In this document: one piece after another, positions 3,001 to 12,000 of the stretch
Layout of the letters: the number at the start of each line of letters is the position of its first letter
Position numbering within the stretch: position 1 is the first letter of the stretch
Assembly (NCBI GenBank): GCA_964370475.1
Contig: CAYJJI010000003.1
Location: 14,389 to 78,388, forward strand
DNA length: 64,000 bases
From: an uncultured Muribaculaceae bacterium
GTDB taxonomy: Bacteria > Bacillota_I > Bacilli_A > RF39 > UBA660
Direction of reading: 5' to 3'
Made by a program: the position numbers

Positions 3001-6000
3001 CTGAAGATGTAGTTATTTGATTATTTAAATCTCCTGCTATTAATAAATCTACTTTTTCTTCTTTTAAATTTAGTCGTTTCAACAATCCATCTATAGCTGT
3101 TGTTTGCATTTTAACCTCAGCTTTTTCAAATGTTTTTTCTTCGAAATTCAGTGTTTCTGATGAATAATCATAATGTTTAATATTCCCTTTTTTTTCGTAT
3201 GGACCTATTACTGAATATAAATCATTTATGTATACGTTTTTATATTTAAAACTAGACATTTAATACTACCTTTACTACTGTTAGTAAAAATCCACTGATG
3301 ATTCCATATATTATTACGCTTCCTGCTAACTTAAACAAATTACTACCTAAACCTGTAATCATTCCATCTTTTTTATAATCTAGTGCACTTGATGTGACTG
3401 AATGAGCGAATCCACTCGTTGGAATTATAAATCCACATTGGGCTTTTTTTACATATCTATCAAAAAAACCAAGTGCAGTTAGTAAACTGCTAATGAATAT
3501 TAAAATTATTATTGTCCATATCGTTGAATCTTGGTTTGAGATTCCCAATAATTTTAATAAATCATATATTAATTGACATATTATTCCTACTAATCCCCCA
3601 CCTAGAAAAGCATATAATCCATTTCTAATTCTTTTTTCTTTTGGTGTGGTTTTTTTTACAAGTTTTTGATATTCTGTTTTATCCATAATAAAACCTCCAT
3701 TACTATTATGAAGGGTTTATATTTATTTATTCATTATTGTGTTAAGAATTGATACATTTTGTTTGTTGCTTGTTTTTCTCTTCTTGAAACTTTCACTTGA
3801 GATATTCCTAATACTTTGGCTACTTCTTTTTGGGTATAATCTTGATAATATCTATAATCAATTATTTGTTTTTCTTCATCTGATAGAACTTGATAAGATT
3901 CATCAATAATTATTTTTTTGTTATCATGAATTGTACTATCACTTATTACTTCATGAAGATTTATTTCTTGATCGTAATCTAAACTCATTATTTTATTTGA
4001 GCTATTTATAGCATTATTAACTTTTTCTTCGTCTATTTCTAAATATAGTGCTATATCAGTATTAGTTGGTATATATCCTAGTTTTTGGGTTAAATACATT
4101 TTTGTTTCTTCGATAGTTTTTCTTAATTTTAAGATATCTCTACTTATTTTTATCATGTTATTATTTACTGCTAAGTTATACATTTCTCCAAATATATAAT
4201 CACAAGCATAAGTGCTGAATTTTGTTTCATAACTATCAACGTAATTATTAGCTGCTTTTATTAAACCTATTGCCCCTACTTGATAAAGATCGTCTTTATC
4301 TATATTTTTAAACTTAGAGGCCATCTTATATATTAAACCTTCATTATTTAAGATTATCTTTTCATAATCCATTTTTATCACCTGTCTTAATGAATATAGT
4401 ACAGTTTTAATATTATTTATACTCTTTCGACAAATGTTCTAATAATATATAAAAAATAGAGTATTTCTACTCTATTATATCTATAGTGTATGGATTATTT
4501 ATTGTTCCTTCTCCACTTACTGTTGCTTCGTTAATTATATTTATTACTGGTTTAGTTGCTAATAAGTAATTAACAGGTAGTTCAGCTATATTACCATATA
4601 TATTCATTATATACATATATGATACGTTATACGAGTATTTTGATGGAGAACTTGTGTAGAAAGCTATATTATTATCTAAATATGTTGATGAGTTATCTAT
4701 TGATAACATTACTTCATCTACACTTAATAGTCCTATATTGTATTCATCTTTATGACATGTTAGTGATGGGGTGTTTTTATTTACTCTGTCGCTACTTATG
4801 TAGTAGTCTGTACCGTATTGGTTTATTTTTTCAATTGGCGTTAAATCGTTACAGTAATTTCCTTCACTAATGTATTGTTCTACTCCAGATAATGTTTCTT
4901 TATACCAATCATCTAGTTGAGTTTTTATAATACTAGATACGTTTTTTTCATCATTGACATAGACATAGCCTAAGTACATTTCTTTATTTGAATATGTGTT
5001 AAAAGATGATGCTGGAAGCTCACTATCTAGCACTAGCCTTACTGTACCATCTCCGTTAACTCTCACTATTCTCCATAATTGGTTTGCAAATGATACATAG
5101 TTATTTTCAACAAGACCACTATAGTAATAACTTACTCCTTCATTATCCATTGTTGAAAATAAGTTATTTGATGATATTATTGTTTCTTTAAATATTGGTT
5201 TTATAAAAGTTTTTTCTGATGTAACTTCAATTGTACCAGTAAAAGTTTGTTCTGCTACTGAACTATTAGTATCTAACCATAGTCTTAGGTTAAATCTGGA
5301 TATATCATTACTAGCTATTTTAATAACACCTAATATTTTTGAAGAATTATATGTTTCATTTTTGTTACTTGCACTGTTTGAAAGCGATTTATAAAGTGTT
5401 GAGTCTAATTCATAGTTTCCTGATATATTTAATTTTATATTATTTTCGTTTTCATCTAATGACTGATTATTTAATCTAATTTCTACTTCTTGTTCTTCTT
5501 GACATTTATTTTCAATTGATATTGTAAAGGGATCAGTTATTTTTCCGTAGTCATCATTAGATATTGAAAGTTCTTTTTCGATAAATTCGTGCTCATATAT
5601 TACTGTTAGACAAGAGGTTTCGTAACTATAAAATGTTGTATTATCATTGATACCATTGTATATTCCGTAACTAGTACTTATTACTAAAGTTAGGATTATT
5701 AGGGCAGCAATTATTATTATTGGCAACTTATATTTCAATTTCATTTTCTACCCTACCTTACTATAATTTAACTATACACTAACAAAAAAAATATGTCAAC
5801 AATATGACATATTTTTTGTATATTTTTTTAGTTTACATTTAATTTAATACTACATTATGAAGGTTGTTTGGATTTATGTGTGTAGATTGATATTGTGTTG
5901 TTAAGAAATTAGTATTTTTTATATTAATTGTTTGAGCTGTAGCATCATTTATTTCTATATTATATAGTAAACTATTTGGATTTAAATTAGTTGCATTAAT

Positions 6001-9000: not shown

Positions 9001-12000
9001 TTGATCAGTTGTTTGGTTACTATTATTTTGATCATTACTTTTAGTTGTTATATTGTAATTTATAAAGACAATTGATGTTATTGCTATAATTACTAATATA
9101 ATTACTATTATTATTTTTTTCTTGTTATCTATCATATTATCTTAAAACTCTTCCTTAATTGTTATATTTGTTGAAATAGTTCTTTCTACTGCTGACACTT
9201 CGTATGAATATTCATCTTCCCATGATCGATATGTAACTGTTACTGTTTCATTTGGTTGAATTGTATATGTTGTTGTTGAGTAAGTTTTTACTCCTTTACT
9301 AGATGTGCTAGTTAAGGAACTTAATAAATATATATTATCATTCAACCCTATTTTAACTTTATTTGTTTCAACGTTTGTGATGTAATTTAATACTATATTT
9401 ACTACATAGTTAGCTTCGGTACTACAATTGTTTTTTATTTCTATTTGTTGTCCTTCACTTTTTAATGCTGATTCGTCGCTTTGTGGTAGTAAACCAATAG
9501 TTTCTACTTTCACTTGGTTGGCATCACCTAGGTTTGTACTTATACAATTTCCGTCTTCATTAGTAGCTTTTTCCGAATATGAATTAGCTATATATATTCC
9601 CAAAAAAATTACTAGTATTGTTGTTATTGTTATTATTATTTTTATTTTCATTATGTTACTCCTTATATAATATTATCATAATTGCAATAACCCTTCAACG
9701 AAAAAATGAAAATAAAAAAAATTGTTTTTGACAATTTTTTTAGTTTAATACTTCTTTTAATAATTTTATTGCTTCTTGTACACTTTCTTCATTTGGTTCC
9801 ATTATATACAATTCTTGTGTTCCATAGTTTGGTATTATTGCACTTGAATCGTATCCTTCTAATGAATTAGAAGTTATTTTCCAACTTGAGTTATTATCTA
9901 GTTGATTCTTTATATAATTTGTTATTAAATCGTTGGGTATATTGGTGATAAATGAATTACTTAAAGTGTCTAAGAATGATGAATATTTAATTAAAATTGC
10001 AGGATTTATCGCTGCATTAAATGTTCCTTCTAATACATTAAATTGATTTTCTATTCTTGTTCGGTCTCCTCCTGTAAAGCTTTTTCTTTCTCGAGAAAAA
10101 GCTAGAGCTTTGTGACCATCCATTTCGTTCATTCCTTTTTTTATAGTGTAATTAACATTATCTGAACTTATTGTTAAATTATAATCTGAGTAGACTTCTA
10201 TTGGACCAATAGCATTTATAATATCTATTACAGAGTTAAAGTTAATTTTGATGTAGTAATCTATTTCTATATCTAATAAGTTTTCTACGGAATTTGTTAA
10301 TGTATTAATACCTTTTACTCCAATATGAGTTAATTTATCTTTAGTAGCAGATCCGTCAACTTCTATGTAATAATCTCTTGGAAATGATGTTACTAGTATT
10401 TCATTAGTACTTGGATTGATACTTATTAACATATTTACATCACTTCTTGTAGTTAATGATAAGTTATTGTAATTATCTGCGCCGCTTAGATATATGTTTA
10501 TTGGAGAGTTAATATTTTTATTTTCTTCGTTGTCTTCAATATAAATTATAATATCAAATTGGTATATTGTTGTTATACTTGTTTCTATTGATGGGTCTAG
10601 TTCGATTAATAAATTTAATACTGTTGTTTCAATTAGTATTGCATCTACTGTTTTTGATTCTAGATTTGTTATTATACTACTTAAATCTTCTATCACTACT
10701 TTTTGAAAGTTAATTTCTTTTTCTAGTTTTTCAATAGCTTCTTGGTACTCTTCTGCTCCATTATATATTCCAATAGAAGAATCATTGTAGTTAGTTAGTT
10801 CATCGGAAGAGCTTTTTAGTGCTATTAATGAGTAATTATTCGTTACTTCTGTAAGACCAAAGTTATTAAAGAAGTTTAGAGTACTAAATAAATAAAAATT
10901 TATTGCTATTAATATTACTATTGATAAGATAGACATTGTTTTAAAAGTTTTTTGTTTTTTACTTTTTACTAACTTATATATTAAGAATATATCTATTATA
11001 CTTAAAATTGAAGTTATTCCTAAAAAGTATTTTAAAGGAATTAAACTTAAAATATATAGTAGTCCTAGTGTTGATAGTGTAAAGATAACTATTAATATAA
11101 TTATAGCTAAATTTAATTTATTTTTTTTCATATTATCACCTATTTGTGCCTTTGTTGATGTTATCTTATCAAATTAGTTATAAAATAGCAACGTTGCAAT
11201 ATTTTATTAATAGTTGTATACTTTTTTTAGGTGATAATTTTATGAATAAAAGAGCTTTATTAATTATCTTAGTAGTGGTGATTAATTGTATACTTATGGG
11301 GATTGTTGATGCTGTTATTGTGCCTCATTATTTTATTAAATCTTTAATTAAATTATTTTTATTTCTAGTGGGACCTATAATTACTTTTATTATTTATAAG
11401 GATATAGAATATAAAAGTATTTTAAAAATTAATAAAAAATGTATCCTAAAATCGTTAGGATTGGGGATATCTATTTTTATTTTTATTTTAGTGTCTTATT
11501 TTATACTAGGTAATATTTTTGATTTATCTAATATTACTAATTCATTAACTAATGATATTGGTGTTAATATTGATAATTATTTATATGTTTCTATTTATAT
11601 ATCAATAGTTAATTCTTTTTTGGAAGAGTTTTTCTTTAGAGGTTTTTCTTTTTTAATTTTAAAGAAATATAGTTCTTTTAGATTATCTTTGTTTTTTAGT
11701 TCTATTACTTTTTCTTTATATCATATTGCTATAATGATAAGTTGGTTTAATATATGGACTTTATTGCTTTTAATAGTTGTATTATTTATAGGTGGATTAA
11801 TATTTAATTATATTAATCTTAAATATGAAAATATATATAGTTCTTGGTTAGTTCATATGTTTGCTAATATTGCTATTAATATATTAGGATTTATTTTATT
11901 TTTAAATTAATACTTTCCACCAGTTAATTCTTTTAGTACTTTGATCATACTTTCTAAGTATGATCTTTTTGTAATATTTTCTTTTATAGTTATTGGAATT

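What the first reader, a model, noticed from the sequence alone, without database searches (positions are those of the whole stretch)
5839..9135. 1098-aa anchored protein with tandem pectate-lyase-type beta-helices and a hypervariable-looking 21-bp coding repeat
Two FGAxGDG(x)DD(S/T) motifs each start a long N/T/I-rich parallel-beta-helix region. This is a polysaccharide-binding or -degrading, or tailspike/adhesin-like, architecture. Between the N-terminal TM and the first helix lies about 370 bp of near-perfect 21-bp tandem repeats encoding DNNDDNQ heptads. Such in-frame repeats readily expand or contract by slipped-strand mispairing, which would vary the stalk length of a surface protein. 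Upstream genes (LCP transferase, small secreted proteins) suggest a cell-envelope glycopolymer context.
Basis: seen in the sequence. Interest (0 to 1): 0.55.

Follow-up and report, generated by a model that had tools for sequence, protein, structure and literature searches.

The report
Membrane-anchored double beta-helix surface protein
This gene of an uncultured, spore-forming, AT-rich gut bacterium encodes a membrane-tethered surface protein with an acidic Asp/Asn/Gln stalk, a shortened beta-helix and a full beta-helix that probably cuts a polysaccharide; it belongs to an unnamed family but to a familiar kind of protein.

Summary
The ORF (5839-9135, minus strand, 1098 aa) is real.

- **Anchor:** there is an N-terminal transmembrane anchor.
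- **Stalk:** a 138-aa tract is 92% Asp/Asn/Gln.
- **Two modules:** each starts with FGAxGD..DDS. AlphaFold2 predicts both as right-handed parallel beta-helices (pLDDT about 95 and 93.8). Their nearest folds are phage tailspike depolymerases, RbmB, WceF, AlgE4 and PfbA.

Two points need correction.

- **The repeat is not near-perfect.** The 21-bp arrays match at only 79-81%. There are three exact DNNDDNQ heptads. The only fresh duplication is a 63-bp unit repeated twice (96% identical, with a 50-nt exact repeat).
- **The modules are not equivalent.** Module 2 belongs to an unannotated family with at least 100 cluster representatives. Its Asp-Glu pair (D811/E812) is conserved in 99% of 107 relatives. 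Module 1 is a paralog that lacks this whole block, so it is probably non-catalytic.

The closest relative (34% identity) has the same layout, but its stalk uses a different repeat (GDNNTG). It also has a conserved small neighbour gene, and no LCP gene nearby.

Strain-level variability could not be tested because no second strain was found. My verdict is a surface-tethered glycan-active enzyme, a new member of a known kind, of modest interest.

The parts
5839..9135 (-). Whole gene: 1098-aa anchored double beta-helix protein
   Evidence: ORF list and translation. The start is the first ATG, two codons after an upstream stop. It lies 6 nt after the stop of the preceding gene.
9061..9114 (-). N-terminal transmembrane signal-anchor (aa 8-25, IIIVIILVIIAITSIVFI) preceded by KKK
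   Evidence: Hydropathy 3.53 over 17 residues; coordinates. There is no LPxTG motif anywhere in the protein. That the anchor stays uncleaved is inferred.
8626..9039 (-). Acidic low-complexity stalk, aa 33-170: 63 Asn, 44 Asp, 20 Gln out of 138
   Evidence: Composition and unit breakdown. It is unique among the window's ORFs.
8853..8967 (-). Repeat array A: 21-bp period, 5.8 copies, 79% matches (NDDNQ / DNNDDNQ units)
   Evidence: Tandem Repeats Finder; sequence read.
8638..8796 (-). Repeat array B: 21-bp period, 7.9 copies, 81% matches. It includes a 63-bp unit repeated twice (8669-8796, 96% identical) with a 50-nt exact direct repeat
   Evidence: Tandem Repeats Finder; longest exact repeat.
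7480..8622 (-). Module 1 (aa 172-552): small pre-domain plus a shortened beta-helix that lacks the family's conserved Asp-Glu block
   Evidence: AF2 with a targeted alignment gives pLDDT 93.8 and pTM 0.91. Foldseek matches beta-helix proteins. The family profile aligns to positions 111-277, 414-485 and 519-653 and skips 278-413. Module 1 is collinear and 31% identical to module 1 of the L021 ortholog.
8374..8412 (-). Cap motif 1: QFGAVGDGVKDDS (aa 242-254)
5842..7479 (-). Module 2 (aa 553-1098): pre-domain plus a full-length beta-helix; the widespread unit of the family and the probable catalytic module
   Evidence: AF2 pLDDT about 95 across the module. Exhaustive phmmer found 373 relatives at E < 1e-3 and 100 at E < 1e-10. 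Conservation analysis.
7216..7254 (-). Cap motif 2: QFGAMGDSQTDDS (aa 628-640)
   Evidence: The PDB profile hits to GH55, tailspikes, AlgE4 and PfbA are confined to this cap region.
6769..6795 (-). Conserved AGGSIWIRD motif (aa 781-789; G782 93%, R788 71%, D789 75% across 107 relatives)
6679..6711 (-). Conserved SHDEHLAVFSG motif (aa 809-819). D811 and E812 are each kept in 99% of 107 relatives, H810 in 75%. This is the putative catalytic pair
9142..9651 (-). p169: small membrane-anchored two-Cys protein. It is the only neighbour also found next to the closest ortholog
   Evidence: 36% identity, E 6e-19, to the 179-aa ORF directly after the orthologous gene in L021. No family hits and no other homolog.
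9740..11131 (-). LCP (CpsA-like) glycopolymer transferase. This is context only and is not conserved next to relatives
   Evidence: PF03816 E 2.9e-34. NF051849 covers the full length at 230 bits, below its cutoff of 650. It is absent from L021 and from L001-L020.
4467..5744 (-). p425: orphan membrane-anchored protein downstream. This is context only
   Evidence: No family hits and no homolog in the related loci. An 11/12 sigma-70-like promoter match lies at 5799-5771.

Best explanation
The gene encodes a chromosomal cell-surface protein, tethered to the membrane by an uncleaved N-terminal signal-anchor.

Reading outward from the membrane:
1. A roughly 138-residue, strongly acidic Asp/Asn/Gln tract with about 45 negative charges. 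It most likely acts as a disordered spacer that carries the folded part through or beyond the cell wall.
2. Module 1, a shortened beta-helix that has lost the family's conserved active-site block. It probably serves as a rigid extension or a glycan-binding surface.
3. Module 2, a full right-handed parallel beta-helix. It carries the family signature W763, R788-D789 and H810-D811-E812, and probably cleaves a polysaccharide along its groove, as tailspike depolymerases, WceF and RbmB do.

The most likely substrate is a glycopolymer at the cell's own surface (wall-linked or secreted polysaccharide), so the protein would trim or release that polymer.

Shown: the architecture, the fold of both modules, family membership, the conservation pattern and the loss of the conserved block in module 1.
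Inferred: topology, disorder of the stalk, catalysis, and above all the substrate.

The repeat tract most likely arose by slippage and unequal recombination of AT-rich codons. It turns over quickly between species. Whether it varies between strains is unknown.
For: - **Fold:** AF2 gives pLDDT about 95 for module 2 and 93.8 with pTM 0.91 for module 1. Foldseek against the PDB gives probability 1.0 hits to K2-2 TSP, CBA120 TSP2, Fri1 gp49, RbmB lyase, WceF, AlgE4, GH28, GH87, GH110 and PfbA. The predicted viral structures give the same picture.
- **Family:** 373 relatives at E < 1e-3. Of the 153 sequences examined (150 relatives, the query and three window neighbours), about 90 have signal, lipoprotein or transmembrane N-termini. 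Some carry dockerin, cohesin or CBM96 domains, which are typical of extracellular carbohydrate-active proteins.
- **Conservation:** D811 and E812 are kept in 99% of 107 relatives. There is also an Asn ladder (N829, N863, N887, N913 at 93-97%) and W763 at 81%.
- **Module 1:** it skips profile positions 278-413. The L021 ortholog does the same, and its module 1 is collinear at 31% identity.
- **Stalk:** acidic low-complexity tracts of unrelated sequence sit at the same position in L021 and P0073.
- **Glycopolymer link:** an LCP gene lies two genes upstream. A family member in L010 is embedded between Wzy, GT2, pyruvyl transferase and flippase genes on one side and GT4 genes on the other.
- **Precedent:** WceF is a chromosomal, tailspike-like EPS hydrolase encoded in an EPS cluster (PMC7949094).
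Against: - No activity, substrate or expression data exist.
- The conserved block has no sequence similarity to any solved structure or curated family. PDB profile hits stop at the cap motif, and PF12708 scores only 20.8 bits against a cutoff of 27. Hydrolase, lyase and epimerase chemistry therefore cannot be told apart.
- The LCP neighbour is not conserved in the closest relative or in 20 other loci. Most relatives have housekeeping neighbours.
- Beta-helix surface proteins can be pure adhesins, as PfbA is.
- Dockerin-bearing relatives point to foreign or dietary glycans rather than the cell's own polymers.
Confidence: 0.55

Rival explanations
1. It is a non-enzymatic adhesin. Both beta-helices act only as rigid binding surfaces for host or bacterial ligands, as in Streptococcus pneumoniae PfbA, and the stalk simply projects them.
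For: PfbA is among the structural matches for both modules and its cap motif matches the family profile (3zpp, E 7e-8). Module 1 has already lost the conserved polar block yet is retained at 31% identity in the ortholog, so a non-catalytic role for a beta-helix is plausible here.
Against: An Asp-Glu pair kept in 99% of 107 relatives at 25-35% overall identity, together with conserved W, R-D and H, is hard to explain by binding alone. There is no LPxTG anchor as PfbA has. Relatives carry dockerin or CBM96 domains.
Confidence: 0.15
2. It is a surface-tethered depolymerase for a foreign glycan (dietary, host mucus, or another microbe's capsule). It would serve nutrient acquisition or competition rather than remodelling of the cell's own envelope.
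For: Relatives come from human-gut MAGs labelled uncultured Clostridium, Mollicutes, Anaeroplasmataceae and Acholeplasmatales. Their neighbours are mostly unrelated housekeeping genes. Two of 40 relatives have dockerins, one a cohesin and one a CBM96.
Against: No transporter or sugar-catabolism genes flank the gene in the window. The only glycan-related neighbours seen are envelope-synthesis genes: LCP here and the Wzy/GT/flippase cluster in L010.
Confidence: 0.2
3. The Asp/Asn/Gln repeat is a contingency device. Slipped-strand mispairing changes its copy number at high frequency, so stalk length varies between cells or strains.
For: Tandem 21-bp and 63-bp arrays with a 50-nt exact direct repeat. 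The tract's sequence is replaced completely between the nearest relatives. The L021 assembly breaks with a 100-N gap inside its tract.
Against: The units are imperfect (79-81% matches) and differ by synonymous substitutions, which damps slippage. All unit lengths are multiples of 3, so no on/off switching is possible. No second strain was found to compare. AT-rich genomes generate such tracts neutrally. An assembly gap shows repetitiveness, not heterogeneity.
Confidence: 0.2
4. It is a remnant of a prophage tailspike or tail-fibre gene.
For: The fold and cap motif are shared with tailspikes. The most distant sequence relatives have phage tail-fibre-like N-termini.
Against: The protein has a transmembrane anchor instead of a virion-attachment domain. 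No phage genes are nearby. A motif scan of IMG/VR found no relative. tblastn against 50,697 phage genomes found only five weak hits, four of them limited to the cap motif (query 65-129). PHROGs gave no hit.
Confidence: 0.03

Closest known systems
Pectate-lyase-like right-handed beta-helix proteins with the PF12708 (Pect-lyase_RHGA_epim) N-terminal cap
   Same: Same fold, the same FGAxGDGxxDD(S/T)xAI cap at the start of each helix, and an Asn ladder.
   Different: The window protein scores below the Pfam gathering threshold (20.8 against 27 bits). The conserved W...IWIRD...HDE block matches no curated family or solved structure.
Phage tailspike or capsule depolymerases (K2-2 TSP 8iqe, CBA120 TSP2 5w6p, Fri1 gp49 6c72)
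   Same: These are the best structural matches for both modules (Foldseek E 5e-8 to 1e-6). They have an elongated beta-helix with a glycan-binding groove.
   Different: Sequence identity is 9-16%. This protein is chromosomal, membrane-anchored and has no virion-binding domain. It is absent from the phage collections searched. Whether it forms a trimer is unknown.
Pantoea stewartii WceF and Vibrio cholerae RbmB (bacterial, self-EPS-cleaving beta-helix enzymes)
   Same: They are chromosomal tailspike-like beta-helices that act on the producer's own exopolysaccharide (PMC7949094). Both appear among the structural matches.
   Different: There is no detectable sequence similarity. The gene here is not inside a full EPS cluster and has only an LCP neighbour. 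Those proteins have no transmembrane anchor, no acidic stalk and no second degenerate helix.
GH55 beta-1,3-glucanases (3eqn, 5m5z)
   Same: These are the best sequence-profile hits in the PDB (E 7e-15 and 5e-13). They also have two cap motifs per chain (residues ~51 and ~398 in 3eqn; ~30 and ~382 in 5m5z). From my own knowledge, GH55 enzymes are two tandem beta-helices in one polypeptide.
   Different: The similarity is confined to the roughly 60-residue cap. Here most family members have a single module, so module 2 is self-sufficient. Module 1 is an internally deleted paralog rather than half of a shared active site.
Streptococcus pneumoniae PfbA adhesin (3zpp, 4mr0)
   Same: A Gram-positive surface beta-helix with the same cap motif and a structural match.
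   Different: PfbA is LPXTG-anchored at its C-terminus. This protein has an N-terminal transmembrane anchor and no LPxTG, and it keeps a near-invariant Asp-Glu pair.

Membership tests
Pectate-lyase-like right-handed parallel beta-helix superfamily (PF12708-type) | Right-handed parallel beta-helix fold | tested here: met
   AF2 gives pLDDT about 95 for module 2 and 93.8 for module 1. Foldseek probability is 1.0 to many solved beta-helices.
Pectate-lyase-like right-handed parallel beta-helix superfamily (PF12708-type) | N-terminal cap motif (F/Y)GAxGDGxxDD(T/S)xAI | tested here: met
   The motif is present twice and nowhere else in the window. The family profile aligns this region to GH55, Phi92 gp150, phi29 gp12, PfbA, ADPG2 and AlgE4.
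Pectate-lyase-like right-handed parallel beta-helix superfamily (PF12708-type) | Score above the Pfam gathering threshold for PF12708 | tested here: not met
   The score is 20.8 bits against a cutoff of 27, E 3.6e-4, on the 927-aa fragment. There is no hit at all on the full protein. 17 of 40 relatives hit at E <= 0.01.
Phage tailspike / depolymerase | Encoded in a phage or prophage structural module with a virion-attachment N-terminal domain | tested here: not met
   Neighbours are LCP, a SigF-like sigma factor, spoVA genes and a PBP5-type carboxypeptidase. The N-terminus is a transmembrane anchor. There are no relatives in IMG/VR or INPHARED beyond the cap, and no PHROG hit.
Phage tailspike / depolymerase | Homotrimer with polysaccharide-cleaving activity | not testable with these tools
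   Only monomer models were possible, and no assay is available.
GH55 (tandem beta-helix beta-1,3-glucanases) | Sequence similarity across both helices, including the inter-domain active site | tested here: not met
   Profile alignments to 3eqn and 5m5z cover only profile positions ~177-238, the cap.
Self-EPS-processing glycanase encoded in a polysaccharide synthesis cluster (WceF / RbmB type) | Gene embedded among polysaccharide synthesis or export genes | tested here: inconclusive
   The window has one LCP gene two genes upstream and no GT, Wzx or Wzy genes. The closest relative has none. One distant member (L010) lies between Wzy, GT2, pyruvyl transferase and flippase genes and two GT4 genes.
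LPXTG-anchored beta-helix adhesin (PfbA type) | C-terminal LPXTG sortase signal | tested here: not met
   There is no LPxT[GAS] motif in the protein, and the C-terminus is part of the beta-helix.
Simple-sequence contingency locus (slippage-driven variation) | Homogeneous, near-perfect tandem repeats | tested here: not met
   The 21-bp arrays match at 79-81% with 8-12% indels. Period-21 identity over the tract is 67%. Only the 63-bp unit repeated twice is 96% identical.
Simple-sequence contingency locus (slippage-driven variation) | Copy number differs between strains or cells | not testable with these tools
   The protein is a singleton at 90% identity among about 15 billion sequences. There is no close relative or exact DNA match in the metagenome contigs.

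The most novel reading that the evidence does not exclude
Module 2 defines an uncharacterised family of extracellular beta-helix enzymes found mostly in gut Bacillota. Its active-site block (W...GGxIWIRD...K..HDE, with Asp-Glu kept in 99% of relatives) matches no curated family or solved structure, so it would be a new carbohydrate-active enzyme family with unknown chemistry. The family is delivered to the surface in several ways. This protein uses a transmembrane anchor, an acidic stalk and a decoy helix. Other members use lipoprotein signals, dockerins or, in about 10% of representatives, type IV pilin-like N-termini, which suggests enzymes displayed on pilus-like fibres.
Probability: 0.3. 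Interest if true: 0.55.

Novelty: new member of a known kind. Interest (0 to 1): 0.3.

Why it matters
If module 2 is an enzyme, it gives a handle on how small-genome, uncultured gut Bacillota remodel or degrade surface polysaccharides. It uses a beta-helix family that current annotation pipelines leave as 'hypothetical'.

The pairing of an intact beta-helix with an internally deleted one, conserved in the closest ortholog, is a clean natural example of a catalytic module duplicated and repurposed as a non-catalytic extension.

The acidic Asp/Asn/Gln stalk keeps its position but is rewritten in sequence between relatives. It is a small case study of how AT-rich genomes build and replace spacer regions. 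None of this changes a general principle.

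Tried and rejected
- **Word-index homolog searches.** The full protein and p169 each returned only themselves, probably because low-complexity words swamped the candidates. The exhaustive phmmer search solved this for the main protein.
- **Locating the source contig.** The look-up of encoding contigs for the protein itself returned nothing. The organism could not be named.
- **Genome scans.** Scans with the broad alignments A1 and A4 failed for lack of a conserved stretch. 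A 5-sequence alignment worked.
- **Strain variants of the repeat.** A protein-based scan of the metagenome contigs and an exact 27-mer scan both found nothing.
- **Phage origin.** The IMG/VR motif scan was empty. tblastn against phages found only five weak hits, four limited to the cap motif. PHROGs gave no hit.
- **Full-length AF2.** It left module 1 at pLDDT 30-65. I did not read this as 'no beta-helix'. I re-ran module 1 with a targeted alignment and obtained pLDDT 93.8.
- **Links between neighbours.** I considered that p425, p169 and the N-terminal domain of relative P0007 share a TasA/camelysin-like domain. The BLASTP E-values were 0.005 and 0.025-0.17, too weak to use. jackhmmer found no p425 homolog and only one p169 homolog.
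- **Plus-strand ORFs inside the repeat** (for example 8625..9044). I rejected these as the stop-free reverse complement of GAT/AAT/CAA codons.
- **Promoter and terminator scan.** It was uninformative in this AT-rich DNA (80 sites found against 65 expected).
- **GH55 literature.** The paper library gave nothing usable. The one paper found describes the fold incorrectly, so the GH55 comparison rests and my own knowledge.

Full report
**1. What is in the sequence**

The ORF 5839..9135 on the minus strand encodes 1098 aa. Its ATG is the first possible start and lies 6 nt after the stop of the preceding gene. The window is about 26% G+C.

The protein begins with MIDNKKK followed by an 18-residue hydrophobic segment (aa 8-25, mean hydropathy 3.53). 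It has no LPxTG motif. I infer that the N-terminal segment is an uncleaved signal-anchor with the rest of the protein outside the cell.

**2. The repeat tract**

Residues 33-170 contain 63 Asn, 44 Asp and 20 Gln out of 138. Tandem Repeats Finder reports two 21-bp arrays:
- 8853-8967: 5.8 copies, 79% matches.
- 8638-8796: 7.9 copies, 81% matches.

It also reports a 63-bp unit repeated twice at 96% identity (8669-8796). The longest exact direct repeat is 50 nt.

Self-identity at period 21 over the whole tract is 67%, against 50-62% for other multiples of three. The peptide is a mosaic: NDDNQ, three exact DNNDDNQ heptads, DNNDNNQ and longer units. The three identical heptads differ at synonymous sites (AAT/AAC, GAT/GAC).

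The tract is therefore real and far from chance, and no other ORF of 150 aa or more in the window has anything comparable. 'Near-perfect 21-bp repeats' overstates it.

**3. Two modules, both beta-helices**

The motif [FY]GAx[GA]D(x2-3)DD[ST] occurs exactly twice in all six frames of the window, both times in this ORF (aa 243-254 and 629-640). Each motif is preceded by a pre-domain of about 60-70 aa. The first 149 residues of the two modules are 28% identical (E 3e-9).

No curated library recognises the full protein:
- Pfam, NCBIfam, PHROGs and PDB sequences gave no hits.
- On the 927-aa fragment without the repeat, PF12708 appears below threshold (20.8 bits against 27). 17 of 40 relatives hit it at E <= 0.01.

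AlphaFold2 on aa 172-1098 with 128 sequences gave pLDDT about 95 for module 2 but only 30-65 for module 1. Module 1 alone with a targeted 57-sequence alignment gave pLDDT 93.8 and pTM 0.91. Both models are stacks of short strands.

Foldseek places both next to the same set of structures: K2-2 TSP, CBA120 TSP2, Fri1 gp49, the Acinetobacter tailspikes, RbmB, WceF, AlgE4/AlgE6, PfbA, GH28, GH87 and GH110. E-values run from 5e-8 to 1e-4 at 9-17% identity. The library of predicted viral structures gives the same picture.

**4. The family, and why the modules are not equivalent**

An exhaustive phmmer search of 1.84 billion cluster representatives found 373 relatives at E < 1e-3 and 100 at E < 1e-10. 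Nearly all align to module 2.

A 12-sequence alignment shows invariant positions in QFGAxGD, YTNxDLYxxW, (E)AGGxIWIRD and KxxHDExxAxFxG. Conservation over the 107 representatives that cover the core is:

| Residue(s) | Kept in |
|---|---|
| D811, E812 | 99% each |
| G782 | 93% |
| Asn ladder N829, N863, N887, N913 | 93-97% |
| W763 | 81% |
| H810, D789 | 75% |
| R788 | 71% |

A profile of this family aligns to module 1 at positions 111-277, 414-485 and 519-653. It skips positions 278-413, which is the block holding W, IWIRD and HDE. Module 1 has no Asp-Glu dipeptide in the corresponding stretch. It is therefore an internally deleted paralog and is probably non-catalytic.

Against solved structures, the family profile matches only through the roughly 60-residue cap. 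The hits are GH55 glucanases (E 7e-15, two cap matches per chain), Geobacillus virus E2 ORF18, Phi92 gp150, PfbA, phi29 gp12, ADPG2, AlgE4/6 and K5 lyase. The cap says 'beta-helix starts here' and nothing about chemistry. The conserved block is unlike anything solved.

**5. Relatives and context**

Twenty loci from GTDB genomes carry relatives of module 2. All are MAGs or draft assemblies, mostly from human-gut projects, labelled uncultured Clostridium sp., Clostridia, Mollicutes, Anaeroplasmataceae, Acholeplasmatales or Acetatifactor.

The closest relative is P0005, at 34% identity over both modules. In locus L021 (GCA_964369845.1) its ORF extends upstream of the called start. It then shows the same architecture:
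- a transmembrane anchor;
- an Asp/Asn-rich tract built from a different unit (GDNNTG, 18 bp), interrupted by a 100-N scaffold gap;
- a module 1 that also skips the conserved block and is collinear at 31% identity;
- a full module 2.

Relative P0073 has a transmembrane anchor, an Asp/Glu/Ser-rich tract of about 85 aa and a module-1-like domain. An acidic low-complexity spacer is therefore conserved in position and free in sequence.

The L021 gene is followed directly by a 179-aa ORF that is 36% identical (E 6e-19) to the window's p169 at 9142..9651. This is the only conserved neighbour.

The LCP gene is a real LCP (PF03816 E 2.9e-34; CpsA-like over its full length, 230 bits). It is absent next to every relative examined. 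Most relatives have housekeeping neighbours. One, in L010, sits between Wzy, GT2, pyruvyl transferase and flippase genes on one side and two GT4 genes on the other.

Of the 153 sequences examined (150 relatives, the query and three window neighbours), about 90 have signal, lipoprotein or transmembrane N-termini and 15 have pilin-like N-termini. Among the 40 relatives scanned with Pfam, two carry dockerins, one a cohesin and one a CBM96.

**6. Phage origin**

The fold and cap are shared with tailspikes, and the most distant sequence hits look like prophage tail fibres. The body of module 2, however, was not found in phage collections:
- IMG/VR motif scan: no relative.
- tblastn against 50,697 phage genomes: five weak hits, four of them limited to query residues 65-129.
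- PHROGs: no hit.

The window's neighbours are chromosomal genes: LCP, a SigF-like sigma factor, spoVAC/AD/AE, a PBP5-type carboxypeptidase and PNPase.

**7. Interpretation**

The best-supported reading is a surface-tethered, glycan-active beta-helix protein. It consists of a membrane anchor, a disordered acidic spacer with about 45 negative charges, a non-catalytic beta-helix (extension or lectin-like surface) and a catalytic beta-helix.

I favour an enzyme over a pure adhesin for two reasons. The Asp-Glu pair is near-invariant in a family that is otherwise only 25-35% identical. Relatives also carry domains typical of carbohydrate-active enzymes.

The substrate is the weakest inference. The LCP neighbour, the L010 cluster and the WceF/RbmB precedents (PMC7949094) point to the cell's own polysaccharide. 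The dockerins and scattered genomic contexts point to foreign glycans. Hydrolase, lyase and epimerase chemistry cannot be told apart.

The repeat tract can be explained by slippage and unequal recombination of AT-rich codons. Its 63-bp duplication shows recent change and its replacement between species shows fast turnover. All units are in-frame multiples of three, so only length could vary, not expression. Strain-level variation could not be tested, because the protein is a singleton at 90% identity among about 15 billion sequences and nothing close exists in the metagenome contigs.

**8. Verdict**

The repeat is described too generously.
- The protein is a new member, in an unannotated family, of a well-known kind: the extracellular pectate-lyase-like beta-helix.
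- The useful additions are the degenerate first module, the family signature and the conserved p169 partner.
- Interest is modest.

Noticed in passing
window 1944-4438 and 11907-13043 (minus strand): The gene order is D-Ala-D-Ala carboxypeptidase ... SigF-like sigma factor (TIGR02885, 148 bits, below its cutoff of 321), spoVAC, spoVAD, spoVAE. From my own knowledge, the Bacillus subtilis order is dacF-spoIIAA-spoIIAB-sigF-spoVA. Here the position of spoIIAA/spoIIAB is taken by the block of CPBP protease, LCP, p169, beta-helix gene and p425 (4467-11910). No STAS or anti-sigma kinase ORF lies next to the sigma gene.
   Followed up: partly
window 9142-9651 (-) and L021 4942-5481 (+): A small membrane-anchored protein with two conserved Cys (169 and 179 aa, 36% identity, E 6e-19) lies next to the beta-helix gene in both genomes. 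It is upstream here and downstream in L021. It has no family hit and no other homolog. It may be a dedicated partner.
   Followed up: partly
relatives P0008, P0010, P0015, P0017, P0036, P0037, P0043, P0045, P0055, P0061, P0077, P0096, P0111, P0113: About 10% of family representatives start with type IV pilin-like N-termini (KGITLIALVVTIIVLLILAG... or GFTLIELLAVIIILAIVA...). Pfam N_methyl hits 2 of the 40 relatives scanned. This suggests beta-helix enzymes fused to pilin-like anchors. The window protein does not have this motif.
   Followed up: partly
L021 1914-2013: The ortholog's repeat tract is interrupted by exactly 100 N, a scaffold gap. The gene caller therefore started the protein (P0005) downstream, at the first Met after the tract, and missed the transmembrane anchor and stalk.
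   Followed up: yes
L010 4718-16401: A family member in an Acetatifactor MAG is embedded in a polysaccharide-synthesis cluster: Wzy_C, GT2, polysaccharide pyruvyl transferase and a Wzx-type flippase upstream, and two GT4 genes downstream (Pfam). Three further downstream ORFs have GT2-like N-terminal sequences but were not scanned.
   Followed up: partly
window 4467-5744 (-): An orphan 425-aa membrane-anchored protein lies directly downstream of the beta-helix gene. It has no family hit. An 11/12 sigma-70-like promoter match lies at 5799-5771. It shows a weak local resemblance (E 0.005) to the N-terminal extension of relative P0007.
   Followed up: partly
window 26278-27235 (-): CotJB and a CotJC-like Mn-catalase gene lie in tandem. 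Together with the spoVA genes and the SigF-like sigma factor, they suggest that this 26% G+C organism forms spores, even though many relatives of the beta-helix family carry 'Mollicutes' or 'Anaeroplasmataceae' labels.
   Followed up: no
window 8578-9075 (+): Several plus-strand ORFs (for example 8625..9044, 139 aa) overlap the repeat. They are the stop-free reverse complement of GAT/AAT/CAA codons and are not genes.
   Followed up: yes
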